Below, piece by piece: positions 2 through 53,999 of a stretch of DNA of 64,000 bases. The DNA is from an uncultured Gammaproteobacteria bacterium (GTDB lineage: Bacteria > Patescibacteriota > Microgenomatia > UBA1406 > HO2-37-13b). The stretch's first letter is position 1, and the number at the start of each line of letters is the position of its first letter. The stretch spans positions 2,743-66,742 of the forward strand of contig CAYQYZ010000005.1 in assembly GCA_964422025.1 (NCBI GenBank), in the 5' to 3' direction. The position numbers and the translations under genes were made by a program. The notes under the pieces were generated by a model that was not told where the DNA came from, searched no databases, and saw only the letters and a list, made by a program, of their open reading frames with translations.

Positions 2-2734
2 TTGGCTTTCATTGGCTTGGTAAATTACCGTTTTGGAACCTATTTAACCGGCTGGGATAATTTGCAAACTGAACTTGCTCCTGGATTAGCGGTAAAGAGA
101 GCTGTTTTTGCCGTGTGGCAGGAATATCAGAGCTTTGGGCTCGTAGGAGGTATGGCACATGCGAGTGACTTATTGAGAGCGATTGGCGTGTGGGCATTAT
201 CATTTATAATGCCACAGAGCCTAATTCGATATGTGGTTCATATAGGAATGCTGGCTGTTGGAGCACTTGGTATATTTAAGCTATTGAGTCAAACAGAGAG
301 CGACACGAGTCATCCTGAGCCCTTCGATTACTCTCAGGGTAAACTCCGCGAAGGATCTCCGCTACCTTTCCTCGGATCACTCTTTTACATCCTTAACTTC
401 GCCACCATTCAACTCTTTTTCCTTCCCTTTGAGCCGTTCTCAATCTTTTTTGCTTCCCTGCCCTGGCTATTATGGATATTTTTACGCACTTTACTAAACC
501 ACAGTAAATTAACGCTTAAAGCCGCTACACCACTCTTTTTAATCAATCTATTAGCGACCCCAAGCTTTTATGTGCAAACGCTGTTTGTCGTATATATGCT
601 CGTATTGGGAGTGATTGGAGTTTGGAAGTTTCGAGCCCGAACGCTCTTTATTGCCTTCGCACTCATTATCACTGCCAACCTTTTCTGGATTCTTCCCCAA
701 GCGTACTTTCTAATAAATGGAGGATCCCAAACGGTCGCTAATGCCAAAATCAATCAGCTTGCCACGCAAGATGTTCAGATGCAAAACAAAGCTCGAGGAG
801 ATATTTCTTCATTCGCCACGTTTAAAAGCTTTTATTACGACTTAAATGGAACCGATCAAAAACCTCTGTTTGAACCCTGGCACAAACACCTAGAAAATCC
901 CGTCGTCCAGATTGCTTCATGGAGTATTTTTGCAATCATCCTGCTCGGAATAACTCGTAAGAGCGCGTATAGAGCTCCTTTTGTAGGAATATGGCTACTC
1001 TGTGCATTCGCACTACTCTCAAACACACCGGTAATTTCTCAGTTACACGACCTTATTACCCGAAATGGTTTGATCGCTCAAATTTTTCGAGCGCCATTTA
1101 CCAAATTCGCCGTGCCCTGGGCACTGATTTCAAGCTACTTTTTTATGAATGGAGTCTCTGTCATTCTGAACGCAGTGAAGAATCTAGGTGTTAAGCGCTC
1201 ACACCCAGATTCTTCGGCTTCGCCTCAGAATGACAAAGTGCGACAATCAGTAGGATCCATACTCTTAACAATAATCTCTTTGACGCTAATAGCCATCGTC
1301 TCTTTCCCCGTTTTCACCGGGAACTTATTCTCAGATCATGTACGCGTAAAAATTCCTACTGACTATTTCCAAACAATGGAGTATTTCGGTACGCTTCCTA
1401 AGGAGAATCGTATTGCCCTGTTGCCCCAAGATTCATTTTGGGGATGGTATCACTATTCCTGGGGATATTCCGGATCTGGGTTTTTATGGTATGGAATCGA
1501 ACAACCCATTGTGTCGCCCACGTTTGATGTGTGGAGTGCACATAGCGAGAGTTACTTTTGGGAAATGAAGCAGGCACTGGCTCTAGGAGAAGCCTCAAAG
1601 ATAACTGCCGTGCTAAAAAAATACAATATTCACTACGTGCTTGTTGATGAGAGCGTGCTTGCATCATCTACGCACCAGAAGGCATTTTTAGCCGACAAAA
1701 TTAAGGAAGCTTTAGCCAGTAATGAATCAGTACAACTTGAAAAGACATTTGGCACGATCTCGATCTACAAAGTGAAAAACGCCGCTCCCTTTGTAACCCG
1801 TATACAGAGCCTACCTGTGGTTGGACCCGACAGAGCGATTACGAACGATGATTCTGCGTATGCTTCTCTAGGAGATTACCGAAGTCCTCTCTTAGCAGAT
1901 AAGGAGAATTATGACTTCTACTTCCCGTTCTTAGATCTGTTTAGCCAAAAAAAAATATACCCACCCACGTGGAAACTTACTGAAAATCCTAATACATTTT
2001 CGTTGACAACGCAATTACCGTTTAATACAAATAAATACTCTCTGTTTTCGAGCGCCGACACATCCTTACTCCAGGGAGCTACGCAAGAGCGTTCATTGGC
2101 GGTTTCATTCCAAAAAAACTCATACGTAACGATCGATACCACCGGCGCCAAGCCTGAACAATGCCAAAAGCTCACCGTATGCGTTGCCTATTCCCTGCCC
2201 GACATTGCCCACGATCAAGCATATATTGTAAAAATTCATAATGAGAATATTGCTGGTCAGCGATTATTCTTTTACGCACAAAATATAACCACCGGAAGCA
2301 CGGTAATCGAAGACCGTTTGAGTGCGGATGTGCAGTACTTTATTCTGCCTTCAGGTAATCATTTTAGCAAAGGATATACCTTCGGTTTCCAGAATGACTC
2401 CCATGTGGGTCTTGAAAGCGAAAACGCCCTGATAAGCATACGCGTATACCATTTGCCGCTTGAACAACTAAAGGCTCTGTATTTTGCTCCTGCAGGCAAA
2501 GACGGCACAAGTACATTTGTATATAACCAGGCATACGATAGTGGCTGGAAAGCTTACCTAAATGGGCAGGAATTGGAAAATCACGTGAAAGTGAATAACT
2601 GGGCCAACGGATGGGTTATTCCGTCAGGCACTAAAGGAAATGTTCGAGTGTTTTTCTGGCCACAATTATTGGAATATGTTGGATTTGCAGCTATTGCCGT
2701 CATCGGAGTTAGTATAATAATAAAGAAAATATGA
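2..2734 (+). CDS. Large polytopic membrane protein with GT-C-like glycosyltransferase architecture (5' end outside window)
   Basis: ORF is open to the left window edge. Many hydrophobic helices in the N-terminal half, then a large soluble domain. Stop overlaps the def start (ATGA). Family assignment is by architecture only. Carries two in-frame family-1 repeat copies. Confidence 0.6.
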   Translation: MAFIGLVNYRFGTYLTGWDNLQTELAPGLAVKRAVFAVWQEYQSFGLVGGMAHASDLLRAIGVWALSFIMPQSLIRYVVHIGMLAVGALGIFKLLSQTESDTSHPEPFDYSQGKLREGSPLPFLGSLFYILNFATIQLFFLPFEPFSIFFASLPWLLWIFLRTLLNHSKLTLKAATPLFLINLLATPSFYVQTLFVVYMLVLGVIGVWKFRARTLFIAFALIITANLFWILPQAYFLINGGSQTVANAKINQLATQDVQMQNKARGDISSFATFKSFYYDLNGTDQKPLFEPWHKHLENPVVQIASWSIFAIILLGITRKSAYRAPFVGIWLLCAFALLSNTPVISQLHDLITRNGLIAQIFRAPFTKFAVPWALISSYFFMNGVSVILNAVKNLGVKRSHPDSSASPQNDKVRQSVGSILLTIISLTLIAIVSFPVFTGNLFSDHVRVKIPTDYFQTMEYFGTLPKENRIALLPQDSFWGWYHYSWGYSGSGFLWYGIEQPIVSPTFDVWSAHSESYFWEMKQALALGEASKITAVLKKYNIHYVLVDESVLASSTHQKAFLADKIKEALASNESVQLEKTFGTISIYKVKNAAPFVTRIQSLPVVGPDRAITNDDSAYASLGDYRSPLLADKENYDFYFPFLDLFSQKKIYPPTWKLTENPNTFSLTTQLPFNTNKYSLFSSADTSLLQGATQERSLAVSFQKNSYVTIDTTGAKPEQCQKLTVCVAYSLPDIAHDQAYIVKIHNENIAGQRLFFYAQNITTGSTVIEDRLSADVQYFILPSGNHFSKGYTFGFQNDSHVGLESENALISIRVYHLPLEQLKALYFAPAGKDGTSTFVYNQAYDSGWKAYLNGQELENHVKVNNWANGWVIPSGTKGNVRVFFWPQLLEYVGFAAIAVIGVSIIIKKI
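309..360. repeat. Family-1 palindromic repeat, composite variant, in frame inside a CDS
   Basis: gtcatcctgagcccttcg...ctcagggtaaac...cgcgaaggatctcc. Contains CCTGAG/CTCAGG and CCTTCG/CGAAGG inverted pairs. Translated as SHPEPFDYSQGKLREGSP. Confidence 0.6.
1160..1234. repeat. Family-1 palindromic repeat, head-to-head pair, in frame inside a CDS (75 bp = 25 codons)
   Basis: gtcattctgaacgcagtgaagaatct (1160-1185) and its inverted partner agattcttcggcttcgcctcagaatgac (1207-1234). The left half differs by 1 nt from the intergenic copy at 14355-14384. Confidence 0.85.
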
Positions 2735-3271: not shown

Positions 3272-3323
3272 TTTGTCAACCTCCGAGGTTGTACATGCCT
3301 ATTCAACCTGGTAGGTTGTTTTT
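3272..3323. repeat. Family-3 hairpin repeat (CAACCT-nnn-AGGTTG units); the last unit plus a T-run is the likely def terminator
   Basis: caacctccgaggttg and caacctggtaggttg hairpins, the latter followed by ttttt (3304-3323). The same block recurs at 50272-50350. Confidence 0.7.
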
Positions 3324-6323: not shown

Positions 6324-9185
6324 TTACTCATCCGTCTTTATCAAAATTGCCCCGACTACTAAACCCCAGTCGGTACCATTACATGCACCATCATAATTTA
6401 CATCGCAATGATCAATATCGGCTTGATTCGTACTACCAATACTATTTCTAACCGACAGTAAGTCGAATGAATTTACCACTCCGTTCTGATCAATATCTCC
6501 ACTCATCATACTGATTCCGGTAAAGTCAAGTTCGTTTATTCCATTTGTTAATGGAATGGTGGAACTGCCTCGACGATATTCACCTGTTTGCGCTTCCAAA
6601 GGCGTTTTATGACACACTCTACGACGACTATGAAGCGGGCCTTTGATTGATATGCAATAGTTTCCAGCAACAATTGTTGGGAATGATGCCGTACCGATAA
6701 CGACTCCTTGCGCGTTTGCACTAAATTGTACTAGCTGAGTAACAGGTTCTGGTAAATTGTCTCCAGTAATACCGACCTGAATTGGAATTGATCCACCGCT
6801 TCTGCCAAATGCACGATCAACTCCTTGGAAATGAAGCGCCAAATCAAGAATCGTACCCTTTCCAGCAGTAACCGTTGCGGGCACATTGCTTGAACATTGG
6901 ATAATGTCGGCCACCGAGGCACCTGCTTTAAATATATTAGAATCAGTTGTTACTCCTGGGACACAGGTAAAGGTAATGTTGGAAGTTCCATTGCCTATAA
7001 CTTTAAAAACGAGCTGTCCCAAAATACCCGATCCAGAAACAGGGCTTGCCACATCTACCGTAGCAGAAACACTTACTATGCCACGCCTTGAAGCATCCTT
7101 TTTTATTGCCATGTAACTTCCATCAATAAAATCAACTGCTTCAAGCATATCGGGGTCATACGATATTTTTGCGTCAGCAGTTGCAACTTGATCTTGTCCG
7201 GTAGCAAGCACTAAGTCGAGTCGTATTGTTTGGCCAATATCCGTAGTAACTGCGGAAGGATTTAATTGAAAATATGCTCCTGATTTGGCAAAAACCGTTG
7301 GAACTGCAGGCGGTACTGTTGGATTAGTATTTACGCCTCCTTGTGCCGCGGTTGGAGCTACGGTAGCCTGAGCACCCGCAGTAGGCTGTGTAACAGTAGG
7401 TTGTGTTTGACCAACCGTTGGTTGTGTTCCACCAGCACAAATAGGAGTTGATCGACTCTTTCCTGCTCCACAGCGATCTTGATCAAGTTCAGTCGCTTGC
7501 ATAGCAGCAGCAACATTTGCACATTCGGACGATGATGCTCCATATAGTTCTCCACATGCTTGATTTACTTTATTATTAAAATCAAAAAATCCTGAACTTT
7601 GACGCAAATACGTTGTATTTGCTTTATAAATAACTGCTAAACTCTTTTCTTTACCTATTCCGTTGATTGTACAGCCATTAAACGTACCTCCAGCAGTCAT
7701 TAAATTAAATGCTTTATTAGTAGGTCCGTTTATTTTATGTTCTTCTCCGGTACATGAAAAGCGTGAATCGAAAATGCGTTCAGGCTGTCCAAATCGACTC
7801 GGATTAGCAATATCGCGAATTGTTCCGGCACGACTCGTTTCGCCCATTGTCCAGTTTGCGGGATCTACGCCATATGCAAACATATCGGAAATGCTCTCAT
7901 TCAAGCCGCGAGCTTGATATTGTGTTCGCAATGGCCCAAGTCCCGATGTGTGTTGTGTAACTCCATGCATGAGCTCATGAGCCCAAATATCTTTTCCAAT
8001 ATAATTTGCACTTGCCGACATTGCCGTTCCATCCCACTGTGCATTTGCCACAGGAGCGTATACATATCCGATAAGAGCTCCCCCATGATTATCAATACCA
8101 TCGCGAGCAAATGAATTAAAGAAAAAATTATAAACATCTCCCAGAATATCGTAAGAAGCATCGATATTCGACTCTCCTACCGGACCTTGTGATTCTGATC
8201 TGGTCACTGAACCACGTGAAGTTACTCGACCGTATGAATCTTGTGAACAACCAACTGTTTTACAGTTGTATACTTTGCGATTTATCGCTTCATAAATCTG
8301 ATCACCATCAGCCAAAATTGCACCTGTATCGAGCGAAACCAAATATAAATGTCGAAATGTATGATACGCAACATTATTACCATCACATGTCATAACTTCA
8401 AGCACAACATTATTTGTTTCATTACTCGAAATACCTAATATTTTTTCATTGTAAATTTTTTGAGAAACTGGTGTATCGCTACAGACAACTGGCGTAGCTG
8501 CAGGAGTAGTCACACTCATATCTACGCTCGCTTGCTCTAGTGCCTTTTCAATGCCTTGTTGCTCGGTTAGCGTAACTTTCGAAACACTGCTTGATAATGT
8601 ATAATCGCCCTCTACTCCTACAACTTTATCAGTGCCAGCAACATCAAACCGTACCGTTGAGCCAAATACGGGAATATTGTTTACTTTTTGTGAGTAATAG
8701 TAATGTTTAATTTCTTGTTTATTTTTGAACATTTTATCATTGAGTGTGCGAGATAAAACAGAATTTTGCCTAAAGTTAGCCGGAAGCACTCGCTGTTTTG
8801 TTCCATCTGTTGAAACACCTTGTACTTGAGTGTTATTTGAAAGCGCGGATGCGTCAATGAGCGGATTTTTATCCATGAATTCAAATACAGCCGCTTCACC
8901 AGTTGCTGTTGCGTCGTACAATACTTGCGTTCCGTTTTCAGTATTTGAGCGTAAATCAACGCTTACAGACTCTTCCGAAACTTCTACTTCCGAGAGCGGT
9001 GAGAGAGTCTGAATTCCAATTTCAACCGGCGTTTGGGCTTGTGACTTTTGGCGAGTACGGGAATCGCGCAGCGACGTAAGGACCATGAGCATTAATACGC
9101 CGAGCATCAACGAGGCGATAATGAGCAATTCTTTTTTTTCGACTTGTATGTGTTGTTGTGGTTCTTCCATATTACTTTTTTCCAA
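6324..9185 (-). CDS. Thermolysin-family (M4) metalloprotease fused to a cohesin-like module and a C-terminal dockerin
   Basis: HELMHGV plus GLNESISD (M4 zinc ligands). Cohesin-like block IRLDLVLATG..ATADAKISYDPDMLEAV...LGQLVFKVIG. C-terminal duplicated Ca-loop DIDQNGVVNSFDLLSV / DVNYDGACNGTDWGLV. Confidence 0.75.
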   Translation of the reverse strand: MEKSNMEEPQQHIQVEKKELLIIASLMLGVLMLMVLTSLRDSRTRQKSQAQTPVEIGIQTLSPLSEVEVSEESVSVDLRSNTENGTQVLYDATATGEAAVFEFMDKNPLIDASALSNNTQVQGVSTDGTKQRVLPANFRQNSVLSRTLNDKMFKNKQEIKHYYYSQKVNNIPVFGSTVRFDVAGTDKVVGVEGDYTLSSSVSKVTLTEQQGIEKALEQASVDMSVTTPAATPVVCSDTPVSQKIYNEKILGISSNETNNVVLEVMTCDGNNVAYHTFRHLYLVSLDTGAILADGDQIYEAINRKVYNCKTVGCSQDSYGRVTSRGSVTRSESQGPVGESNIDASYDILGDVYNFFFNSFARDGIDNHGGALIGYVYAPVANAQWDGTAMSASANYIGKDIWAHELMHGVTQHTSGLGPLRTQYQARGLNESISDMFAYGVDPANWTMGETSRAGTIRDIANPSRFGQPERIFDSRFSCTGEEHKINGPTNKAFNLMTAGGTFNGCTINGIGKEKSLAVIYKANTTYLRQSSGFFDFNNKVNQACGELYGASSSECANVAAAMQATELDQDRCGAGKSRSTPICAGGTQPTVGQTQPTVTQPTAGAQATVAPTAAQGGVNTNPTVPPAVPTVFAKSGAYFQLNPSAVTTDIGQTIRLDLVLATGQDQVATADAKISYDPDMLEAVDFIDGSYMAIKKDASRRGIVSVSATVDVASPVSGSGILGQLVFKVIGNGTSNITFTCVPGVTTDSNIFKAGASVADIIQCSSNVPATVTAGKGTILDLALHFQGVDRAFGRSGGSIPIQVGITGDNLPEPVTQLVQFSANAQGVVIGTASFPTIVAGNYCISIKGPLHSRRRVCHKTPLEAQTGEYRRGSSTIPLTNGINELDFTGISMMSGDIDQNGVVNSFDLLSVRNSIGSTNQADIDHCDVNYDGACNGTDWGLVVGAILIKTDE

Positions 9186-14354: not shown

Positions 14355-14384
14355 GTCATTCTGAACGCAGCGAAGAATCTCCGT
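14355..14384. repeat. Family-1 palindromic repeat (intergenic, between convergent genes)
   Basis: gtcattctgaacgcagcgaagaatctccgt. Confidence 0.85.
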
Positions 14385-19864: not shown

Positions 19865-19943
19865 ATATATATTGTAGATTCAAACTTACGAATCCTACTA
19901 TCACTATAAAAGAATCAATAATATGTTGTCAAGGAGGAAATAT

Positions 19944-19971
19944 GGAGAACCTTCGACAAGCTCAGGGTGAC
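19944..19971. repeat. Family-1 repeat, divergent variant (reverse orientation)
   Basis: ggagaaccttcgacaagctcagggtgac. Confidence 0.55.
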
Positions 19972-20036
19972 ATAAGATATGGGGTACGGGGGTACCGTAT
20001 ATTAGGCACAAAAAGCCGCATCAGATATATTTAAAA

Positions 20037-20120
20037 ACGGCGCGAGATATCTGTTTGGAGACGAGTTGAAGCGTGAAGCAACTCTTCACTCGAGTCGACA
20101 AACACGATATCGAGCGGAGT
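20037..20120. repeat. Family-2 MITE-like element, 84 bp, identical to 52557-52640
   Basis: acggcgcgagatatctg...gatatcgagcggagt. The ends form an imperfect 15-bp inverted repeat (11/15). The interior folds as a long imperfect hairpin (CGAGTTGAAG / CTTCACTCG). Confidence 0.85.
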
Positions 20121-20144
20121 TATCAAATATATCCATTTTCCCAC

Positions 20145-20174
20145 TTGACATTGTTTGCAATACTTTTCTACAAT
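20145..20174 (+). promoter_or_regulatory. Promoter; the predicted TSS is at or next to the ATG at 20183
   Basis: TTGACA, 18 nt spacer, TACAAT, 8 nt, ATG. Confidence 0.55.
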
Positions 20175-20182
20175 CAATTAAT

Positions 20183-20779
20183 ATGACAAATCTATCAAGC
20201 ACGATCAAACAAGACCTTGCCGAGTTCAACAAACTCGACCAAAACCGAAAAATGGCCGTAATTGCCATTATTTTCGGCCTTTTCATTATTAGTATTATTG
20301 TCGGAGCAAACGTAACCAAAAAATCCGACACCGATACACAAACAGCCACTCCAACAACCGGTGCGCTTGAAAATGCAAAACCATCAACAACCATTGCCCT
20401 ATCCCCTGCTAAGCAGACTATTAAAGTAGGAGAGGCAACAAAAATTGACGTCATGCTTTCTAAACTACCCGTAACTGCTGCTGATGTAATATTGACTTAC
20501 GACGCAAAACAGGTTACCGTTTCAGCCCTTACGAATGGAACCGTGTTCCCCCGAGTAATTGGCATGAAGAATGAAACCGGAAAAATTACCTACAATGGCT
20601 CACTTTCTGAAGAAAGCCCAACCGATCGAAAAGAAGGGGTCATTTTCAGCTTCACCGTGACACCAAAAGCGGGTGCCAAATCAGTCGTAATTGACTTTGA
20701 TCATACCAAAACGCTTACTGCGATCAACGGCGAAAACACGCTGGGTAGCACAGTCGGAGGAATTTACACCATACAATGA
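20183..20779 (+). CDS. Membrane-anchored cohesin-like domain protein
   Basis: TM helix, then VGEATKIDVMLSKLPVTAADVILTYDAKQVTV...GVIFSFTVTPKAGA. Start moved from 20066, because the upstream part of the ORF is repeat and promoter sequence. Confidence 0.55.
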   Translation: MTNLSSTIKQDLAEFNKLDQNRKMAVIAIIFGLFIISIIVGANVTKKSDTDTQTATPTTGALENAKPSTTIALSPAKQTIKVGEATKIDVMLSKLPVTAADVILTYDAKQVTVSALTNGTVFPRVIGMKNETGKITYNGSLSEESPTDRKEGVIFSFTVTPKAGAKSVVIDFDHTKTLTAINGENTLGSTVGGIYTIQ

Positions 20780-23700: not shown

Positions 23701-25485
23701 GAATCGGATCTTTCAGTCGCTAACACAACAAATGGGCAACCTATTAACCTAAAGCCAAATGAATGTTGGTCGTTGGATGCGAATTTAGGAGTCACAAAAT
23801 TACCATCGTGTCCCGTAGATCCAAAAGATGTTTCAAATCAACCGCCGCGACGAGTTCCTGGCGAACCACAACCTACTGCTAAACCCGGAGAAACACAACC
23901 CCAACCAGGGCCTGGTCAAACTACTCCAAAAGGTCCAGGGTCAGGCATAATAACCACTATCAGTGATAATGAAAGTGCTTTGAATGCAGACGCAACTATT
24001 GCTGCCTCCTATCGCACAACAAGCAGTGCTGAAAATATCCCCGCCACTATTGTTCCAAACGAAGATGGCTCGGTCACATATTCGGTTCCAAATTTCGATT
24101 CTGAACAGGATGAATACTTTATCGATATATATATAAACTACGCACTACCTGAAACTCCTTTAAAAACTCAGCGCGCCACTGCAAAACTACACATAAATAA
24201 AAACGAATACAACAATACCGGTGTTTGGGACACGGAAATCATATTGGATCCAGCTAACGATCCTGAATTTGATTCCACAATACCTACCCCTCAACCAGGA
24301 GATACATGGATGAAACCTACTGATGACAAGAAATATGTGCGTAGTTGTGTGAGTAATGAGAGACTATGTATCAGCGAAGGCGGAACTGTTTTTAGAGGCA
24401 CAACGAATCTAACATGCGCAAACCGTAATGCAGTAAAATGTTTATTCCCAATAATAGCTCCACGAGATTCAACACCAAGGACTCCTGCTCCAAGAACACC
24501 AGCACCGGATGCTAAACCATGGCTAGGACTCACTAATGATAAGCAAAGGTACAGAAGATGCTTGGCAGATGTCGGTGTTTGTAAGTCAAGGGCTGGTAAA
24601 GTGATTACAAGCACTGGTTGGAAATGTGAAACAGAATCCTTGACAAAATGCGAAATTCCAATCAGCAAAAGTACTATCATTATTGACGGAATAACAAATT
24701 TCAAAGGTGACGATAGACGCGATGCAATAGTTGTTCTTGATATCAGAACACTTGCCTCGGGTAGGGTTATTGATACAGATTCTTATGATGAAGATGATTT
24801 CCGCGGTTCATTGAATATGGCAAGCTTCACAAACACAATTCCTGTCAAAGATCATTTAGATTATCAAGTCGACTTTAAAGTAGTGAACAAGAGAACACGA
24901 GAAAAAGTTACTGGGTATGAATTTAAAAGCGTAGGAGGCCAAATGACGTGCAATGGGAAAACATGTACATCAAGTAAGGGCGGAGGGTACATAAAAGTAG
25001 AAATAAATAAAACTGAGGCTGATAGCTCATCAGTTCTTTCTTCCATATCTTTGAATAATGCTAGTGACCAAGCTATCACTTCCTTTTCTATAGCCTCATG
25101 CGATTCGTCCAATAAATGTACGTCAAACACAGTTCCCATAGGACTCGCCGCTGGAGCAAATACAAAATTCAAGCCAACATTCTCAGTACCTAGTACCACT
25201 CGACGATTGAGCTGTGTGGTTACGTTTGGCAATGGAACACGCAAACAATGCACTCCACAACTGGTCACCGGAAGTAATGGATTGCAATTTACTATTACTG
25301 CACAAGCAAATAATACGGTTAGTACAACCGTTCTCTCCCCACTTAAAACTGCCGACACTAATCGTGACTGTAAAGTGACAAGTGCCGATGCAGTAGGTTT
25401 GAGAGATCTGGACGGTAATGGAAGTGTAAATGCGGCCGACACGTCACTTTTCTTCAGCTACATTGGCCAGAATGCGTGCAACTGA
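20776..25485 (+). CDS. Giant Cys-rich surface protein (1569 aa): signal anchor, PT linkers, YGW module, FN3-like domain, C-terminal dockerin
   Basis: ATGA overlap with the upstream gene. YGW module at 22441-22875. FN3-like VAVSWTAP...HDYVASVYAF. C-terminal DTNRDCKVTSADAVGL / DLDGNGSVNAADTSLFFSYIG. Confidence 0.75.
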   Translation: MNISQLKNWKQRGEVATLFTVAALVLMAAGTLLGSARVVQDNVLKLGSFAYDNTYRAHFYKGPTFEEKDRIPGQPNSGYTLIRGSLCFTGTRIPSQLQQFWVHTPQDPNRGYPQKACDNTNTDTKDDCIVHEGRTVKYIAPQTSRPYCDSPDVGKANWRAWDFTLKLQAPYSKDLCSGLFVSSSSSFVSRDPIEIDMNAWHRYLGQHGVDCGPTPTVPVNPTNTPIPTDQPPVTEQPTIKVPTARPTIDNRITAGPTVRISIRPTDKPRCPDPKRPCPSITPVGECRTDITCSSKSKPCPSGYSCLFLNEDLNADNPGTCVSNDRKCNPTTTPTPPRATISPQPSCNDCVSQGKAYRCTGDVAFPGQSPAVYCSNTDTGRPASCQLCTPVSVTSSPEQAKIRGDIIVNSCKKPDSVDTRICSKTNPSTCLRGNTPVTFIGQDPTNPNKWVYSYEHTVAPIDGTTSYEPIERGLLYAEMQAYAHYSVNGLITDYGIVTYPPFQANQKPKVGYTTIPASDSESIINYEVLQNSIVCPPVSPSVKPSEAPTAIPSPSMCKFSATLEVRDEATNLPIPVSQMGDVNKWGVANDKQTNKPNTLFSISGDVVNGERVSRYNLKTDTLTFRPQDSKALYQEGDKAQAGLYIDTNKWKITRKIPCNGNGCPIPNEPGNNPILDQYGSTTTGFKMNCDQSSSYGWYVQKLPPTSPENPGQPGQPAGQCVLRDPVNAVKCSPKNVKAVRKSTSTVAVSWTAPDASCNFTPGSNGDFYRIDLIDMTENPRSVITTCDKITNTSKECTLSPTYHPNSSGQKGTFQAGHDYVASVYAFKEIPGSVDMCVSNNGNASFDRPAKDNGSGDAPEPTTAPIGGSDSNGNELLTRQLDWMVNNVGVCWAGWSHGKCSLAYNGTNKWAQSITDGRFKCFAPYGADKAVPGQETVVIGLMDGVEQINGVQTKRVDCIGNKENACIAAKDTKVSQCESDLSVANTTNGQPINLKPNECWSLDANLGVTKLPSCPVDPKDVSNQPPRRVPGEPQPTAKPGETQPQPGPGQTTPKGPGSGIITTISDNESALNADATIAASYRTTSSAENIPATIVPNEDGSVTYSVPNFDSEQDEYFIDIYINYALPETPLKTQRATAKLHINKNEYNNTGVWDTEIILDPANDPEFDSTIPTPQPGDTWMKPTDDKKYVRSCVSNERLCISEGGTVFRGTTNLTCANRNAVKCLFPIIAPRDSTPRTPAPRTPAPDAKPWLGLTNDKQRYRRCLADVGVCKSRAGKVITSTGWKCETESLTKCEIPISKSTIIIDGITNFKGDDRRDAIVVLDIRTLASGRVIDTDSYDEDDFRGSLNMASFTNTIPVKDHLDYQVDFKVVNKRTREKVTGYEFKSVGGQMTCNGKTCTSSKGGGYIKVEINKTEADSSSVLSSISLNNASDQAITSFSIASCDSSNKCTSNTVPIGLAAGANTKFKPTFSVPSTTRRLSCVVTFGNGTRKQCTPQLVTGSNGLQFTITAQANNTVSTTVLSPLKTADTNRDCKVTSADAVGLRDLDGNGSVNAADTSLFFSYIGQNACN

Positions 25486-25511
25486 GATTCTTCGCTCACG
25501 CTCAGAATGAC
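25484..25511. repeat. Family-1 repeat (reverse orientation), overlapping the stop codon of the 1569-aa gene
   Basis: gagattcttcgctcacgctcagaatgac. Confidence 0.8.
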
Positions 25512-29693: not shown

Positions 29694-29774
29694 GTCATTT
29701 TGAATAGCACTGTCATTCTGAGCTCCGCCAGCTGGCGGAAGCGAAGAATCTCCGTATATACTCCGCTCGAGATC
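29694..29774. repeat. Composite repeat: family-1 with duplicated head and inner palindrome, joined to a family-2 terminal fragment
   Basis: gtcattttgaatagcactgtcattctgagc-TCCGCCAGCTGGCGGA-agcgaagaatctccgt, then actccgctcgagatc (13/15 to the reverse complement of the family-2 right end). Confidence 0.75.
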
Positions 29775-29814
29775 ATGATTCTCAGCTTGAAGCAGGAATA
29801 GTAATTAAGAAGAC

Positions 29815-50414: not shown

Positions 50415-51151
50415 AATCTTTCTTTCCCTACCAACCACATGAACTTCACCAACCGCAGTTGTCGCCAAATTCTTCTGGGCTGGCGCACAAGCCGGAATAA
50501 CCACTCAAATCCGGCCTTCTGTATCCACTTGGGTGCACGGGCAATATTTCCCGATAAAAAGTCAAAAGCTCCCCCAACCCCCATTACTACCATTCCAGCA
50601 AATAGCTTGCTATGACGTTCTATCCATAATTCTTGGGCTGGGGAGCCGTAGGCCACGAATACCATATGTGGCTTTGTAGCAGCAACTATAGAAGCAATCT
50701 CAGCTTCTTCCACATCCGTTGGTCGTGCGATATTAGCAATTCCTGTTGTGCCTGTAAATTCAATGCCTGAAAAAGCTTCCTTTTGGCACTCAATTACCTT
50801 GTCTGCTACTTTATCACCTCCACCGATTAGTAGTACTCGTAAGCGTCTGTTGTGAGCCTCTTTGAGCAAGTCCGACATCAAATCAACCCCACTGTACCGG
50901 TCACCAACGGGAATTGAGCACAGTTTTGCAGCAACGATAACTCCTATACCATCAAGAATACGCATTTGGGCCTCTGTGGCGACCTTTTTAAACTCCCAAT
51001 TAGTCGTTGTGAGCACAAAATTCTCGGGATTTAACGATACTACATGGAAAAATCTTTTGGTTTCAAAAATGTTTTTAATAATTTTCTCTCGGATAGCGCT
51101 TTTTGACTCGGTTGGAATTGGTATCCCGAGGAGATGATTTTTAGATTGCAT
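50405..51151 (-). CDS. WecB/TagA/CpsF-family glycosyltransferase
   Basis: GVDLM..L...A..........LLGG......A, VFVAYGSPAQELWI and EWLFRL..QPRR.WR patterns. Confidence 0.8.
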   Translation of the reverse strand: MQSKNHLLGIPIPTESKSAIREKIIKNIFETKRFFHVVSLNPENFVLTTTNWEFKKVATEAQMRILDGIGVIVAAKLCSIPVGDRYSGVDLMSDLLKEAHNRRLRVLLIGGGDKVADKVIECQKEAFSGIEFTGTTGIANIARPTDVEEAEIASIVAATKPHMVFVAYGSPAQELWIERHSKLFAGMVVMGVGGAFDFLSGNIARAPKWIQKAGFEWLFRLVRQPRRIWRQLRLVKFMWLVGKERLSF

Positions 51152-51400
51152 AAAGTTTATTTGTATAGGTTTATATTAAACACAAGGGCTTCCTGATATT
51201 TGGGTACTTTGTTCAACTTATTTGAACACTATTGTTTTACTTTTATCTTGTCTTAAAAGGTTGATACTACTATTAACTTAATATGAAGGATTTTTCAACC
51301 TTACATATATATTATACTCTACGGCTATTTCCAGTTTACTCATTTACACCTCTATCCGAGCGCTTTTAAAACGCCTTCAAGGACGTTGCTTTCTTATAAG

Positions 51401-52408
51401 CTATCTTACAGCATCTCTAAAGCTATCTAGGTTCTCAATTGCCATTCCAACCCCTCGAATTACGCAAAATAATGGCTCTTCGGCGACAAAAGCAGCTACT
51501 CCAATTTTATTTGTAAAGTATTTGTCAATGTTGTGTAAAAGTGACGTTCCTCCGGAAAGCACGATTCCACGATCGACAATGTCGGAAGCTAGTTCCGGCG
51601 GCGTTTGGGAGAGAACTTCTTTCACTCCATCAAGGATATTTTTGAGCGGTTTTTGAAGTGCTTCTGAAAGATCAGCCTCGCTAATATCAACAATCCGTGG
51701 CAAACCCGACTGAAAGTCGCGACCGCGGACTTCATACATACGAGTATCTTTTGCTTCGTCTAGGTATGCATTCCCTATTTTCATTTTCACTTCTTCAGCA
51801 GTTCGTTCCCCGATAATCAGATTGTGCGTTTTACGCAGATGATTAATAATTGCTTCGTCGATCTTGGTGCCGGCTCCTCGGACGCTTTTATACACCACGA
51901 GCTGACCAAGGGATATAATGGCGATTTCAGCCGTACCACCGCCCAAGTTAATAATCATATTGCCCGAAGCCTGAGAAATAGGCACCTTGGCTCCTATGGC
52001 CGCAGCCAGAGGCTCTTCCATAAGATATACTTCAGATGCCCCAGCATTTTTACAGGCACTTACCACCGCTCGCTTTTCAACTTGCGTCGATCCTCCGGGA
52101 ATTGAAATCATCAAATCAATGCCGCCCCAGCTGGTACCACCAATGGCTTTCTTAATAAAGTAGCTTATCATGGCCTCAGTCACTGTGTAATCAGCAATAA
52201 CGCCTTCCCTAAGCGGGCGAGCAGCTACAATGGTTCCTGGAGTTCGGCCCAGCATTTCACGCGCATCTTCGCCTACTGCCAAAATTTGTTTGCTTTGCAG
52301 CGAATACGCAACAACCGTGGGCTCATTCAGAACGATTCCTTTTCCCACTACATATACTAATGTGTTTGCGGTCCCTAAATCGATGCCAATTTTCTTGCGA
52401 AAGTTCAT
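51401..52408 (-). CDS. mreB: Rod-shape-determining actin homolog MreB
   Basis: IGIDLGTANTLVYV, PLREGVIAD, NLGGGTAEIAIISLG and LSGGTSLL motifs. Confidence 0.95.
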   Translation of the reverse strand: MNFRKKIGIDLGTANTLVYVVGKGIVLNEPTVVAYSLQSKQILAVGEDAREMLGRTPGTIVAARPLREGVIADYTVTEAMISYFIKKAIGGTSWGGIDLMISIPGGSTQVEKRAVVSACKNAGASEVYLMEEPLAAAIGAKVPISQASGNMIINLGGGTAEIAIISLGQLVVYKSVRGAGTKIDEAIINHLRKTHNLIIGERTAEEVKMKIGNAYLDEAKDTRMYEVRGRDFQSGLPRIVDISEADLSEALQKPLKNILDGVKEVLSQTPPELASDIVDRGIVLSGGTSLLHNIDKYFTNKIGVAAFVAEEPLFCVIRGVGMAIENLDSFRDAVR

Positions 52409-52556
52409 AAAACGTTAGATGATATCTTATGATACATTTATATTATAATAAGATAGGTTAAAAAGAGCTAATTTAGACCATTATACCATGCCGGAATGGG
52501 TATTTTTAGCGAACTATGGACAATACTTAAAGCATGCGAATCATATTCAACCTAGT

Positions 52557-52640
52557 ACGGCGCGAGATATCTGTTTGGAGACGAGTTGAAGCGTGAAGCA
52601 ACTCTTCACTCGAGTCGACAAACACGATATCGAGCGGAGT
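52557..52640. repeat. Family-2 MITE-like element, identical to 20037-20120
   Basis: 84/84 identity by direct comparison. Followed 7 nt later by a family-1 copy. Confidence 0.9.
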
Positions 52641-52647
52641 AAAGGAT

Positions 52648-52675
52648 GGAGATTCTTCGCTGCGCTCAGAATGAC
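52648..52675. repeat. Family-1 repeat (reverse orientation)
   Basis: ggagattcttcgctgcgctcagaatgac. Confidence 0.85.
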
Positions 52676-52679
52676 ACTA

Positions 52680-52688
52680 TGATACAAT
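52680..52688 (+). promoter_or_regulatory. Extended -10 promoter; the predicted TSS coincides with the ATG at 52695
   Basis: TGATACAAT, 6 nt, ATG. No good -35. Confidence 0.45.
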
Positions 52689-52694
52689 TAGTAC

Positions 52695-53999
52695 ATGTTC
52701 TCGAAAGTTGTGATACGGTTTATTTTAGCCATCGTCTTCGGCATCGCCTTTATTCTTATTGTCGGTTATGCCCGTGGGTATCGTCTTAATTTCGGCAAAC
52801 AAGAAGTTACTTCTACGGGAATTTTAGTTGCTACTTCTTCACCGGACGCTGCCAAGATATATATTAATGGAGAATTATACGGTGTAACGAATTCCAATAT
52901 TACCCTCCCCCCGGGCGATTACCATGTAGAGCTTAAAAAAGAAGGGTATTCCACATGGGGTACTGATTTAAAGTTGAAAGGAGAACTGGTTATGCGAGCA
53001 GACGGCATTTTGTTTCCCCAAAACCCTTCACTCTCGCCGCTTACCTCACTTGGGATAGTAAAAGCTTTCTATTACGAGAAATCAAATAATGTCATTTTAC
53101 TTGCCGACTCCGGAGAAGCCACCGATGTTCCGGCTGAGCTTGCAAAAGATGGCATATACTTCCTCGATAACGCTCGACGCCAACTTTCACTCTTCAACCC
53201 ACTTAAGTTGCTTGTGGCTAAGAAATTATTTCCCGCAGGGGTTGATTTTGCTAATGCTACAATTTCAATGTCACCTGACCAAAAAGAGATGCTGTTTGAA
53301 GTAGGGACTCGAACCTATTTGCTCTCAACAACCGAAGAGACTACCGATCTTATTGATGTAACTCGGTCCCGAGAAGCCGTGCTCGCTGTATGGAAAACAA
53401 AGCGGGAAGCAGACTTGAAAAAGGTGCTAGAAACGTTCAAAAAGCCATTCCCACTAATCGCAAGTACATCATTTGACATCATTAGCTTCTCGCCCGACGA
53501 AATCAAAATTTTGTACGTTGCTAAGCAAGATGTGAGTATTCCGAAGATCTTGAACCCCGGCTTGGTTTCCATAAATCAACGTCCACAGACACGCGACATT
53601 AAAGTCGGGCATGTGTATATTTATGACAAAAAGGAAGACACGAATTATGAACTGACCCCGCCCCAATCGATTGCTGATCTAATAACAAACGTTCCGGTCA
53701 ATCTGATTCCTTCACCGGCTACAACAATTGCGGTACCTTTGGATCTGGGAACGAGCCAAAATATAACCGCGCTTGCTTCGAAATTAATCTGGTACCCCGA
53801 TAGCAAGCATATCATTATGAGAGAAACAAACAAAATTACGATTGTTGACTACGACAATTCAAATAAACAGACAGTGTATTCAGGTCCAATCGTAAGCGAT
53901 TTCATTAGCATAACAACCGATGGTCGCCTGCTTATTTTAGCCAATTTGAACCCTCAAACGAATAAACTTCCGGACGTGTACGCAGTGGGAATTCGATAA
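52695..53999 (+). CDS. PEGA-domain membrane-anchored protein with a large C-terminal domain
   Basis: TM helix; SSPDAAKIYINGELYGVTNSNITLPPGDYHVELKKEGYSTW is a PEGA pattern. Confidence 0.65.
   Translation: MFSKVVIRFILAIVFGIAFILIVGYARGYRLNFGKQEVTSTGILVATSSPDAAKIYINGELYGVTNSNITLPPGDYHVELKKEGYSTWGTDLKLKGELVMRADGILFPQNPSLSPLTSLGIVKAFYYEKSNNVILLADSGEATDVPAELAKDGIYFLDNARRQLSLFNPLKLLVAKKLFPAGVDFANATISMSPDQKEMLFEVGTRTYLLSTTEETTDLIDVTRSREAVLAVWKTKREADLKKVLETFKKPFPLIASTSFDIISFSPDEIKILYVAKQDVSIPKILNPGLVSINQRPQTRDIKVGHVYIYDKKEDTNYELTPPQSIADLITNVPVNLIPSPATTIAVPLDLGTSQNITALASKLIWYPDSKHIIMRETNKITIVDYDNSNKQTVYSGPIVSDFISITTDGRLLILANLNPQTNKLPDVYAVGIR

What the first reader, a model, noticed from the sequence alone, without database searches (positions are those of the whole stretch)
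52557..52640. MITE-like 84-bp element present in two identical copies, with a mosaic third copy
20037-20120 and 52557-52640 are identical over 84 bp. The ends (ACGGCGCGAGATATC / GATATCGAGCGGAGT) form an imperfect inverted repeat (11 of 15), and the interior folds into a long imperfect hairpin.

A third copy (50245-50380) keeps both ends, but its interior is replaced by three family-3 CAACCT-nnn-AGGTTG hairpins. Two copies are followed within 4-7 nt by a family-1 repeat. The same junction (family-1, a few nt, then the family-2 end) recurs as a truncated fragment at 29694-29774.

No transposase is present in the window and I see no target-site duplication. Perfect identity of copies 32 kb apart implies recent mobility or gene conversion.
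Basis: seen in the sequence. Interest (0 to 1): 0.55.

Follow-up and report, generated by a model that had tools for sequence, protein, structure and literature searches.

The report
Palindromic repeat family in Roizmanbacteria
The 84-bp repeat is real and belongs to a hairpin-forming, non-coding repeat family, with fixed ends and a swappable middle, that is scattered between genes in one group of uncultured ultra-small bacteria; it behaves like the small "selfish" palindromic repeats known from other bacteria, not like a gene or a classical transposon.

Summary
20037-20120 and 52557-52640 are identical over 84 bp and their flanks are unrelated. 50245-50380 has the same ends around three CAACCT/AGGTTG hairpins. 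A right-half fragment lies at 29757-29792(-).

The window is from a Candidatus Roizmanbacteria (CPR) genome. A covariance model finds the family at about 14 loci in six related genomes (about 70-94% nucleotide identity to the window) and nowhere in 690 kb of unrelated DNA.

The ends pair into a stem with conserved G·A/G·A mismatches. Covariation is strong: 17 of 26 pairs show compensatory changes. The interior is modular and turns over fast. At one orthologous site with near-identical flanks, a 93%-identical relative has a completely different interior. An 88%-identical relative carries the exact 84-mer in the same spacer with different flanks. Other sites are occupied in some genomes and absent in others, and some copies are ancient and decaying.

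I found no target-site duplication, no transposase, no Rfam match, no consistent orientation and no fixed gene neighbour.

Best reading: a REPIN/BOX-like non-autonomous palindromic repeat, moved and reshuffled in trans. Its mobilising enzyme is unknown and it does not meet the classical MITE definition. Interest is moderate.

The parts
20037..20120 (+). Family-2 copy 1, the 84-bp 'w84' variant. It lies in the untranscribed spacer between two divergent promoter-like sites.
   Evidence: 87.7 bits. Promoter-like sites at 19903-19932(-) and 20145-20174(+). The orthologous site is occupied in L027, L028 and L030 with different interiors.
52557..52640 (+). Family-2 copy 2, identical to copy 1. It lies in the PEGA-MreB divergent spacer.
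   Evidence: 86.2 bits. The same 84-mer is in the same spacer of L016 with unrelated immediate flanks.
50245..50380 (+). Family-2 copy 3. It has the canonical ends, and its interior is three family-3 hairpin units. It lies between two minus-strand genes, so it is antisense to them.
   Evidence: D4, D8; 42.9 bits, E 1e-7. L016 has a different family-2 variant at this site, and L018 has no spacer there.
29757..29792 (-). Right half of an 'L003-type' family-2 copy; the left half is deleted.
   Evidence: (97% over 35 nt to L003). A full-length copy sits at the same site in L030.
52648..52676 (-). Family-1 hairpin (GTCATTCTGAGC-loop-GCGAAGAATCTC) 7 nt after copy 2. It abuts the -10 box of the PEGA gene.
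50385..50416 (-). Family-1 hairpin 4 nt after copy 3.
   Evidence: (D19).
29712..29752 (+). Family-1 hairpin carrying the nested palindrome TCCGCCAGCTGGCGGA in its loop. It is 6 nt from the family-2 fragment.
19946..19971 (-). Divergent family-1 copy 65 nt upstream of copy 1.
50272..50346 (+). Three family-3 units (27-bp period) forming the interior of copy 3.
   Evidence: (D4).
3272..3319 (+). Free-standing family-3 array of two units. The relative L026 has three units here.
   Evidence: (D4).
20024..20032 (.). GATATATTT, the left arm of a 9-bp inverted repeat that brackets copy 1. The right arm, AAATATATC, is at 20125-20133.
   Evidence: duplex -7.3 kcal/mol, p=0.002 against shuffled flanks. 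Conserved in L027.

Best explanation
Family-2 is a lineage-specific family of non-autonomous palindromic interspersed repeats in Candidatus Roizmanbacteria.

Shown:
- Each copy is one long imperfect hairpin.
- The roughly 20-nt ends, (T/A)ACGGCGCGAGATATCTG ... CAYGATATCGAGCGGAGT(A/T), pair with each other.
- The stem keeps fixed purine-purine mismatches (GG/GA, then tandem GA/GA, and a further GA/GA deeper in the stem).
- The stems co-vary across genomes, so pairing itself is maintained by selection.
- The interior is modular and exchangeable. It can be small GC-rich palindromes, family-3 hairpin arrays or a ~90-nt module.

Inferred:
- Copies are placed and removed in trans by an enzyme encoded elsewhere that recognises the folded ends. 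A RAYT or IS200/IS605-like single-strand transposase, or another structure-specific recombinase, is the type that leaves no target duplication.
- The conserved ends and shared inner palindromes also serve as short homology for conversion, cassette swapping and deletion between copies.
- The two identical 84-bp copies are products of recent copying or conversion from one 'master' sequence that is also present unchanged in a sister species.
- Any effect on the host is secondary. Candidates are hairpins in transcripts, or cruciform-prone DNA between divergent promoters.
For: - Multi-copy with sharp boundaries and unrelated flanks.
- Short-read contigs of the same organism break inside these repeats.
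- Family census: canonical ends in the window, L016, L027, L028, L030 and four loci of MAG CAYPSA01. Divergent copies are in L017 and at three loci of L018. There are no hits in 690 kb of unrelated loci.
- CAYPSA01 is syntenic with the window at about 76% identity.
- Covariation: 91% of cells are paired against 79% in shuffles, and 17 of 26 pairs have double changes. The covariation score is 0.381 against 0.198 (0 of 500 shuffles reach it), and slid controls give 23-43% paired.
- Turnover at site A: L027 (93% identical, flanks nearly identical) keeps the ends but has a wholly different 139-nt interior. L028 has the w84 type with 6 substitutions.
- Turnover at site B: L016 is 88% identical overall but carries the 84-mer at 84/84, with unrelated 31/33-nt and 9/18-nt flanks. 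By my arithmetic 0.88^84 is about 2e-5.
- Site B in other relatives: no copy was found in the 90% relative L017, neither in the spacer alignment nor by the model. In L018 a divergent copy sits there in the opposite orientation.
- Site C: a different variant in L016 and no spacer in L018.
- Site E: present in L017 and L018, absent from the window, where the two genes overlap.
- Site D: a full copy in L030, the right half only in the window and L027, and in L028 the left end fused to a family-1 half through the shared CCGCCAGCTGGCGG module.
- No transposase, no fixed neighbour and no fixed orientation.
- No Rfam family matches.
Against: - No mobilising enzyme has been identified. Only 64 kb of the source genome and about 20-kb pieces of relatives could be read.
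- No clean empty site with intact flanks was recovered, so insertion has not been seen directly.
- Long persistence at orthologous sites, strong covariation and conserved G·A mismatches would also fit a host-selected hairpin.
- G·U outnumbers A·C in paired columns 17 to 8, and RNA-parameter folds favour one strand in 7 of 7 copies. This hints at a single-stranded functional form, but with DNA parameters the two strands are equal.
- The perfect 84/84 identity across species could reflect selection rather than recent spread.
Confidence: 0.6

Rival explanations
1. Host-selected RNA hairpin. The element acts in transcripts as a stabiliser, processing site, attenuator or protein-binding site (for example through the tandem G·A motifs). 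It is kept because the hairpin is useful, and its multiplicity reflects repeated recruitment.
For: - Strong stem covariation.
- G·A/G·A loops are conserved even in the most divergent copies.
- RNA-parameter folds favour the same strand in 7 of 7 copies.
- G·U outnumbers A·C, 17 to 8.
- In L018, copies fill whole intercistronic or convergent spacers.
- Copies are retained at sites A, D and E across 70-76% identical genomes.
Against: - Copies 1 and 2 lie between divergent promoter-like sites, outside the predicted transcripts.
- In co-directional spacers the orientation is sense at 2 loci and antisense at 4.
- Neighbours are unrelated housekeeping genes.
- The interior can be replaced by sequence that folds no better than shuffles (L027a, z -0.25).
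- Half-copies persist.
- There is no Rfam match.
- With DNA parameters the two strands fold equally well.
Confidence: 0.2
2. DNA-level host element: a binding site or cruciform-prone palindrome for a nucleoid, topology or regulatory protein, placed in spacers such as those between divergent promoters. Each end contains an 8-bp perfect palindrome (AGATATCT and CGATATCG).
For: - Copies 1 and 2, and L018 9894-9986, sit in divergent-promoter spacers.
- The palindromic cores at both ends can be read directly in the sequence.
- DNA-parameter folds are equal for both strands.
- REP/BIME elements are known binding sites for several proteins (abstract of PMC2817692, seen).
Against: - Other copies are in convergent or co-directional spacers.
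- The GATATC core itself co-varies (GATACC/GGTATC, AATATC/GATATT) rather than being fixed. This argues for pairing, not for a duplex sequence read-out.
- GATATC is neither depleted nor enriched in the window: 15 observed against 17.6 expected.
Confidence: 0.1
3. Classical MITE: an internally deleted derivative of an IS element, cut and pasted by that IS's DDE transposase through its terminal inverted repeats.
For: Small size, multiple copies and imperfect terminal inverted repeats of 11 of 15. Six of nine full copies read T|element|A.
Against: - There is no target-site duplication. The three w84-type copies with independent flanks read a|..|t, t|..|a and t|..|a.
- No IS or transposase was found in the window or in about 175 kb of related loci.
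- The end mismatches are conserved as purine-purine pairs.
- Copies have been retained at orthologous sites for a long time.
Confidence: 0.05

Closest known systems
REPINs / REP-BIME elements mobilised by RAYT transposases (PMC3116915; PMC2817692; bioRxiv 10.1101/2021.07.10.451892)
   Same: - Roughly 100-nt units made of two conserved end sequences in inverted orientation that form one long hairpin with a less conserved middle.
- No target duplication.
- No transposase inside the element.
- Lineage-specific families that are inherited vertically and persist at loci for long periods.
- Clustering into mosaics with other repeats.
   Different: - No RAYT has been found so far.
- The ends are not themselves REP-like stem-loops with a 5' GTAG.
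- Copy density seen here is modest: 3 in 64 kb, and 3 in 4 kb in L018.
- The interior is a swappable cassette rather than a simple spacer.
- The host is a CPR bacterium.
Pneumococcal BOX elements, with RUP and SPRITE (as summarised in PMC10969869)
   Same: - Modular build: conserved end modules with a variable number and kind of internal modules. Copy 3 equals the ends plus three family-3 units.
- Stable secondary structure.
- The mobilising enzyme is unknown.
- Different repeat families bunch together and insert into one another.
   Different: No sequence relationship, a different phylum, and the two ends here pair directly with conserved G·A mismatches.
Bacterial MITEs such as Correia and ERIC (PMC10969869)
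   Same: Short, non-coding, palindromic, intergenic, multi-copy and polymorphic between strains. Internal insertions or deletions create size classes.
   Different: No target-site duplication and no parent IS. The terminal repeats are imperfect in a conserved way.
Rickettsia palindromic elements (RPEs; PMC10969869)
   Same: The companion family-1 repeat of this window sits in frame inside a conserved membrane-protein gene and is polymorphic among orthologues, as RPEs are. Both hosts are reduced-genome bacteria.
   Different: That behaviour is shown here for family-1, not for the 84-bp family-2 element. All family-2 copies seen are intergenic.

Membership tests
MITE (classical, IS-derived) | Short non-coding multi-copy element | tested here: met
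   84-145 nt, with 3 full copies plus 1 fragment in the window and more in relatives.
MITE (classical, IS-derived) | Terminal inverted repeats | tested here: inconclusive
   The ends match at 11 of 15 positions. The four mismatches are conserved purine-purine positions, and the whole element is one hairpin.
MITE (classical, IS-derived) | Target-site duplication flanking each copy | tested here: not met
   The flanks of about 10 independent copies show no direct repeat.
MITE (classical, IS-derived) | A parent IS or transposase with matching ends in the genome | tested here: not met
   None in 56 window ORFs or in the genes called or scanned on related loci. Whole genomes could not be read.
MITE (classical, IS-derived) | Presence/absence polymorphism between related genomes | tested here: met
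   Sites B, C and E differ among the window, L016, L017 and L018. No clean empty site with conserved flanks was recovered.
REPIN / REP-RAYT system | Two conserved short sequences in inverted orientation forming a long hairpin with a less conserved middle | tested here: met
REPIN / REP-RAYT system | Each REP unit is itself an imperfect palindrome with a conserved 5' tetranucleotide (GTAG-like) | tested here: not met
   The ends contain only 8-bp perfect palindromes without a loop (AGATATCT, CGATATCG) and no GTAG.
REPIN / REP-RAYT system | A single-copy RAYT (Y1/HUH) gene flanked by the repeats | not testable with these tools
   None in the window or the loci held.
REPIN / REP-RAYT system | Vertical inheritance and long persistence at loci | tested here: met
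   Sites A and D are occupied in genomes about 74% identical to the window. Site E is shared by the relatives L017 and L018 and is absent from the window.
BOX-type modular repeat | Conserved end modules with variable internal modules | tested here: met
   Same ends with at least 5 different interiors, including 3 tandem family-3 units.
BOX-type modular repeat | Sequence homology to boxA/boxB/boxC | not tested
   No BOX sequences were compared. None is expected across phyla.
Curated structured RNA family (Rfam 15) | Match to a covariance model | tested here: not met
   Only 4 tRNAs reach the gathering score. Nothing relevant appears at E up to 10 over 49900-52900.
Cis-regulatory or small RNA gene (generic) | Constant orientation and context relative to genes | tested here: not met
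   Sense, antisense, divergent and convergent placements all occur, and the neighbours are unrelated.
Integron attC site | R''/L''...L'/R' boxes with AAC/GTT cores, arranged in cassette arrays next to intI | tested here: not met
   The ends are ACGGCGCG.../...GAGCGGAGT. Copies are 2-30 kb apart and there is no integrase.

The most novel reading that the evidence does not exclude
The conserved, G·A-mismatched hairpin ends may be recognition sites for a structure-specific, single-strand recombination system. This would be attC-like in logic but unrelated in sequence. It would insert, excise and swap interior 'cassettes' at fixed chromosomal sites in CPR bacteria. It would work together with the cosmopolitan family-1 hairpin that follows the right end at 6 of about 11 loci with canonical ends. 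That would be a new kind of hairpin-defined mobile or recombination system, rather than one more REP/MITE family.
Probability: 0.1. Interest if true: 0.8.

Novelty: new member of a known kind. Interest (0 to 1): 0.42.

Why it matters
CPR/Patescibacteria genomes are small and streamlined, and my literature searches found no description of interspersed palindromic repeats in them.

This window shows a layered repeat ecosystem:
- a clade-specific hairpin family with swappable interiors;
- a cosmopolitan 27-nt hairpin that even sits in frame inside a conserved membrane-protein gene;
- a 27-bp-period hairpin array;
- small GC-rich palindromes that nest inside the others.

These repeats break short-read assemblies of the same organism. 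They generate strain-level differences in spacers next to promoter-like sites. They are natural markers for strain typing and for finding the still unknown enzyme that handles them.

If that enzyme is a structure-specific single-strand recombinase, the system would be of mechanistic interest. If not, this is an ordinary but previously unrecorded repeat family.

Tried and rejected
1. **Segmental duplication.** Rejected, because identity ends at the 84-bp borders.
2. **Known RNA family or ribozyme.** There is no Rfam hit, even at E up to 10.
3. **Wide distribution of the exact ends.** The whole-collection scans found true copies only in one MAG (CAYPSA01). Every other hit was a chance match in high-GC or phage coding sequence. 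The phage hit scores only E 0.1 with the model.
4. **TA target-site duplication.** Six of nine copies read T|element|A, but copy 1 reads A|..|T. The outer base simply extends the stem, so this is not a duplication.
5. **Rule of insertion into hairpin loops.** Flank pairing is significant only at site A (p 0.002) and marginal in L016 (p 0.05). It is absent elsewhere, so this is kept only as a lead.
6. **Restriction-site link (EcoRV GATATC).** The site is neither avoided nor enriched.
7. **5'-UTR regulatory element.** Orientation and neighbours are inconsistent, and copies 1 and 2 lie upstream of the promoter-like sites.
8. **Strand asymmetry as proof of an RNA.** The asymmetry disappears with DNA energy parameters.
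9. **Literature search by sequence string.** It returned only unrelated primers.
10. **Exact-protein look-ups for strain variants of the window.** They returned only broken contigs of the same sample, and the source contig itself is not in the index.

Full report
**1. The observation**

Window 20037-20120 and 52557-52640 are identical over 84 bp, and the sequences diverge immediately outside (family D5). The left end ACGGCGCGAGATATC and the right end GATATCGAGCGGAGT each occur three times without mismatch. A pattern requiring both ends finds exactly the three reported loci, against 0 expected.

The third locus (50245-50380) has the same ends. Its interior is three CAACCTnnnAGGTTG units with a 27-bp period.

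Family-1 (GTCATTCTGAGC-loop-GCGAAGAATCTC, read on the other strand) starts 7 nt after copy 2 and 4 nt after copy 3.

The truncated junction near 29.7 kb is real. The family-2 part runs to 29792 on the minus strand. It is the right half of a variant that is full length in other genomes.

The 84-mer folds into one long imperfect hairpin (-35.5 kcal/mol, z -4.3).

**2. Source organism and setting**

The flanking genes are MreB, a PEGA-domain protein, WecG, cohesin/dockerin proteins, sortase and ribosomal proteins. GC content is 0.42. The best MreB and membrane-protein matches place the window in Candidatus Roizmanbacteria (Microgenomates, CPR).

Pfam finds no transposase, integrase or HUH domain in 56 window ORFs.

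Short-read (Logan) contigs of the same organism end inside family-2, family-1 or family-3 copies. This is the usual signature of multi-copy repeats.

Copy 1 lies between two strong divergent promoter-like sites (19903-19932 on the minus strand and 20145-20174 on the plus strand, each 11 of 12). Copy 2 lies between the conserved extended -10 box of MreB and that of the PEGA gene. The two identical copies are therefore probably outside the neighbouring transcripts. Copy 3 lies between two minus-strand genes and is antisense to them.

**3. Distribution**

Exact-ends scans of the genome, metagenome and viral collections returned true copies only from one MAG, CAYPSA01 (four loci). All other hits were chance matches in high-GC or phage coding sequence.

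CAYPSA01 is labelled Gammaproteobacteria. It is in fact syntenic with the window at about 76% nucleotide identity.

Contigs of graded relatives were fetched through flanking proteins:

| Locus | Source | Nucleotide identity to window |
|---|---|---|
| L026/L027 | ENA ERZ27275293 | 93-94% |
| L016, L028 | SRR27787827 | 83-88% |
| L017 | SRR31239915 | MreB protein 90% identical |
| L031 | CAYPSA01 | 76% |
| L030 | GCA_038127095.1 | 74% |
| L018-L023 | RIFCSPHIGHO2_02_FULL_40_13b | about 70% |

A covariance model built from eight copies recovers every known copy. It finds nothing below E 0.01 in 690 kb of unrelated loci (the only matches below E 1 are cut-off copies at the ends of the window organism's own contigs, at E 0.014-0.19, and the phage hit at E 0.1). 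It detects three divergent copies in L018 with E-values from 1e-7 to 1e-10. The family is therefore clade-wide in these Roizmanbacteria, and the exact ends define only one subfamily.

**4. Anatomy**

All full copies share one architecture:
- an outer stem (T/A)AC | GG/GA | CGC | GA/GA | GAUAUC;
- a second stem (UGAUUC/GAAUCA, which is UGUUUG/CAAACA in the 84-mer) with a one-base bulge;
- another GA/GA loop;
- stem P2 (GACGAG, GACCAG, GACCAU or AAGCUUG with matching partners);
- stem P3, which ends in a conserved YYCAC.

On 15 aligned copies, 91% of cells form pairs against 79% in shuffles. Seventeen of 26 pairs show changes on both sides. The covariation score is 0.381 against 0.198 (0 of 500 shuffles reach it), and slid controls give 23-43% paired. 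This alignment was fitted to the model, which favours the structure. An independent MAFFT/RNAalifold run still gives 12 of 26 pairs with compensatory changes.

The G·A/G·A loops are kept even in the most divergent copies.

With RNA parameters the plus strand folds better in 7 of 7 copies. G·U outnumbers A·C by 17 to 8. With DNA parameters the two strands fold equally well. The data therefore do not decide between an RNA form and a single-stranded DNA form.

**5. The interior is modular and turns over quickly**

Interiors seen between the same ends include:
- the w84 hairpin;
- three family-3 units;
- the palindromes TCCGCCAGCTGGCGGA and CCTGCCTGCCGGCAGGCAGG inserted into an otherwise shared core (L007 against L002; L017c against L003);
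- a ~90-nt module shared by L027, L030 and L016.

Site by site:
- **Site A (glutaredoxin-like / cohesin spacer).** The flanks are nearly identical between the window and L027, and the ~20-nt ends are kept. The interior, however, is completely different: 139 nt that folds no better than shuffles (z -0.25). The more distant L028 has the w84 type with 6 substitutions.
- **Site B (PEGA-MreB spacer).** L016, which is 88% identical overall, carries the 84-mer at 84/84, yet the 31/33 nt on one side and the 9/18 nt on the other are unrelated. Under neutral divergence at 88% identity, 84 unchanged positions have a probability of about 2e-5 (my arithmetic). No copy was found in L017. L018 has a divergent copy there in the opposite orientation.
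- **Site C (WecG spacer).** The window has the family-3 mosaic. L016 has another variant with ends GATACCGAGCAGAGT. In L018 the two genes overlap by 4 bp.
- **Site D.** L030 has a full copy followed by family-1. The window and L027 retain only the right half. In L028 the left end is fused to a family-1 half through the shared CCGCCAGCTGGCGG palindrome.
- **Site E (ADH / aminotransferase).** Occupied in L017 and L018. Absent in the window, where the genes overlap.

**6. What it is not**

- There is no target-site duplication. The outer T...A or A...T base simply extends the stem.
- There is no cognate IS.
- There is no Rfam family.
- Orientation to transcription is not constant. In co-directional spacers, 2 loci are sense and 4 are antisense. 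The rest are divergent or convergent spacers.
- There is no common neighbour. Neighbours include Dus, EF-P, DnaJ, KhpB, a P-type ATPase and MreB.
- GATATC is neither avoided nor enriched.
- Pairing of the immediate flanks, which would suggest insertion into the loop of a host hairpin, is significant only at site A and marginal in L016.

**7. Interpretation**

The best-supported reading is a non-autonomous palindromic interspersed repeat of the REPIN/BIME/BOX kind. The conserved, mutually pairing ends are what is recognised. The middle is free to vary. Copies are moved or converted in trans. Short shared palindromes mediate swaps and deletions.

What is shown: multiplicity, sharp borders, clade-wide distribution, stem covariation, interior replacement at orthologous sites, differential occupancy, decay products, and the absence of a target duplication or transposase nearby.

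What is inferred: the mobilising enzyme (a single-strand, structure-specific type such as a RAYT or IS200/IS605 TnpA would fit the absence of target duplication) and recent copying of the w84 master.

The main rival is a host-selected hairpin acting in RNA or DNA. It is favoured by covariation, the conserved G·A loops and long retention. It is weakened by placement outside predicted transcripts, inconsistent orientation, unstructured replacement interiors and surviving half-copies.

**8. Comparison with known systems**

REPINs share the two inverted conserved ends forming a hairpin, the lack of a target duplication, vertical persistence and trans mobilisation (PMC3116915; bioRxiv 10.1101/2021.07.10.451892; PMC2817692). 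No RAYT has been found here, and the ends are not REP-like stem-loops.

Pneumococcal BOX elements share the modular build and the habit of clustering with, and inserting into, other repeats (PMC10969869).

The classical MITE definition fails on target duplication and on a parent IS.

I found no description of such repeats in CPR bacteria. Absence from the searchable library is not proof.

**9. Verdict**

The MITE label is only partly right. This is a new member of a known kind of bacterial repeat, in a phylum where such repeats have not been catalogued. It has some unusual features: conserved tandem G·A mismatches, cassette-like interiors, and a fixed partnership with a cosmopolitan hairpin. 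Interest is moderate.

Noticed in passing
window 309-358 and 1160-1234, inside ORF 2-2734(+): Family-1 hairpins lie IN FRAME inside a conserved ~900-aa membrane-protein gene. One is a single copy and one is an inverted doublet. They encode SHPEPFDYSQGKLREGS and SVILNAVKNLGVKRSHPDSSASPQNDK. Orthologues carry different repeat-derived peptides, or none (P0128), at the same loops. The 94%-identical relative L026 lacks a 24-nt apical insertion present in the window copy. This resembles Rickettsia palindromic elements.
   Followed up: partly
window, about 13 copies (e.g. 14355-14381, 25484-25511, 52649-52675); loci L033-L105: Family-1 (GTCATTCTGAGC-loop-GCGAAGAATCTC) is cosmopolitan. An exact pattern with 24 specified bases hits 73 IMG/VR contig stretches whose GC content ranges from 0.37 to 0.66. 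Hits are often inverted doublets and loop lengths vary. It also has a tandem GA/GA internal loop. There is no Rfam match. None of these loci contains family-2.
   Followed up: partly
window 3272-3319; L026 12443-12511; window 50272-50346: Family-3 is a 27-bp-period tandem array of CAACCTnnnAGGTTG hairpins. Copy number varies between near relatives: 2 units in the window and 3 in L026. A 3-unit block forms the interior of family-2 copy 3.
   Followed up: partly
window 29724-29739; L002, L003, L007; L028 9805-9836: The small GC-rich palindrome TCCGCCAGCTGGCGGA nests in the loop of family-1 and inside family-2. In L028 it joins a family-2 left end directly to a family-1 half, which suggests recombination through the shared palindrome. 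A second palindrome, CCTGCCTGCCGGCAGGCAGG, behaves similarly in CAYPSA01.
   Followed up: partly
L027 9240-9330; L030 9240-9340; L016 3990-4062: A ~90-nt module (GCGAGYGGGTG...CCGGAGGGAGTCC...GCTTTTTGC..GCAAAAAACG..GGGACGAGGG...CCTCCGCGAGC) recurs as the interior of family-2-like elements in three genomes. In L030 it is joined directly to the outermost ends without the GATATC arms.
   Followed up: no
window 20145-20183 and 52678-52697: The -10 boxes end 7-9 nt before the ATG of the cohesin-domain gene and the PEGA gene (TACAAT at 20169-20174 with ATG at 20183; TGATACAAT at 52678-52686 with ATG at 52695). This suggests leaderless mRNAs, and the arrangement is conserved in relatives.
   Followed up: no
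loci L002, L003, L005, L007, L031 (GCA_964413645.1, CAYPSA01): This MAG is titled 'uncultured Gammaproteobacteria'. It is in fact syntenic with this Roizmanbacteria window (rplJ/rplL, MerR-like, glutaredoxin-like, cohesin and giant surface proteins) at about 76% nucleotide identity, so the label appears wrong.
   Followed up: partly
window 33628-37782(-): Three tandem paralogous genes of 410-464 aa (repeat families D1 and D2, spacing 1412-1471 bp). They have no Pfam family apart from a weak HMG-box hit.
   Followed up: no
L017 3732-3898: In the 90% relative, the PEGA-MreB spacer holds a different purine-rich/pyrimidine-rich imperfect palindrome (AGAGGGATAAGAGGGAGAGGAGGGAGTGG...CCCTCATCCCCCTCACTCCCTTCTCTCCCTC) instead of family-2 and family-1.
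   Followed up: no
L010/L014/L015 (IMGVR_UViG_3300031993_002622) 7410-7510(-): A phage-like contig contains GCGCGAGATATCCG...CGGATATCGAGCGGAGA. It scores only E 0.1 with the family model and is probably a chance match forced by the search pattern.
   Followed up: partly
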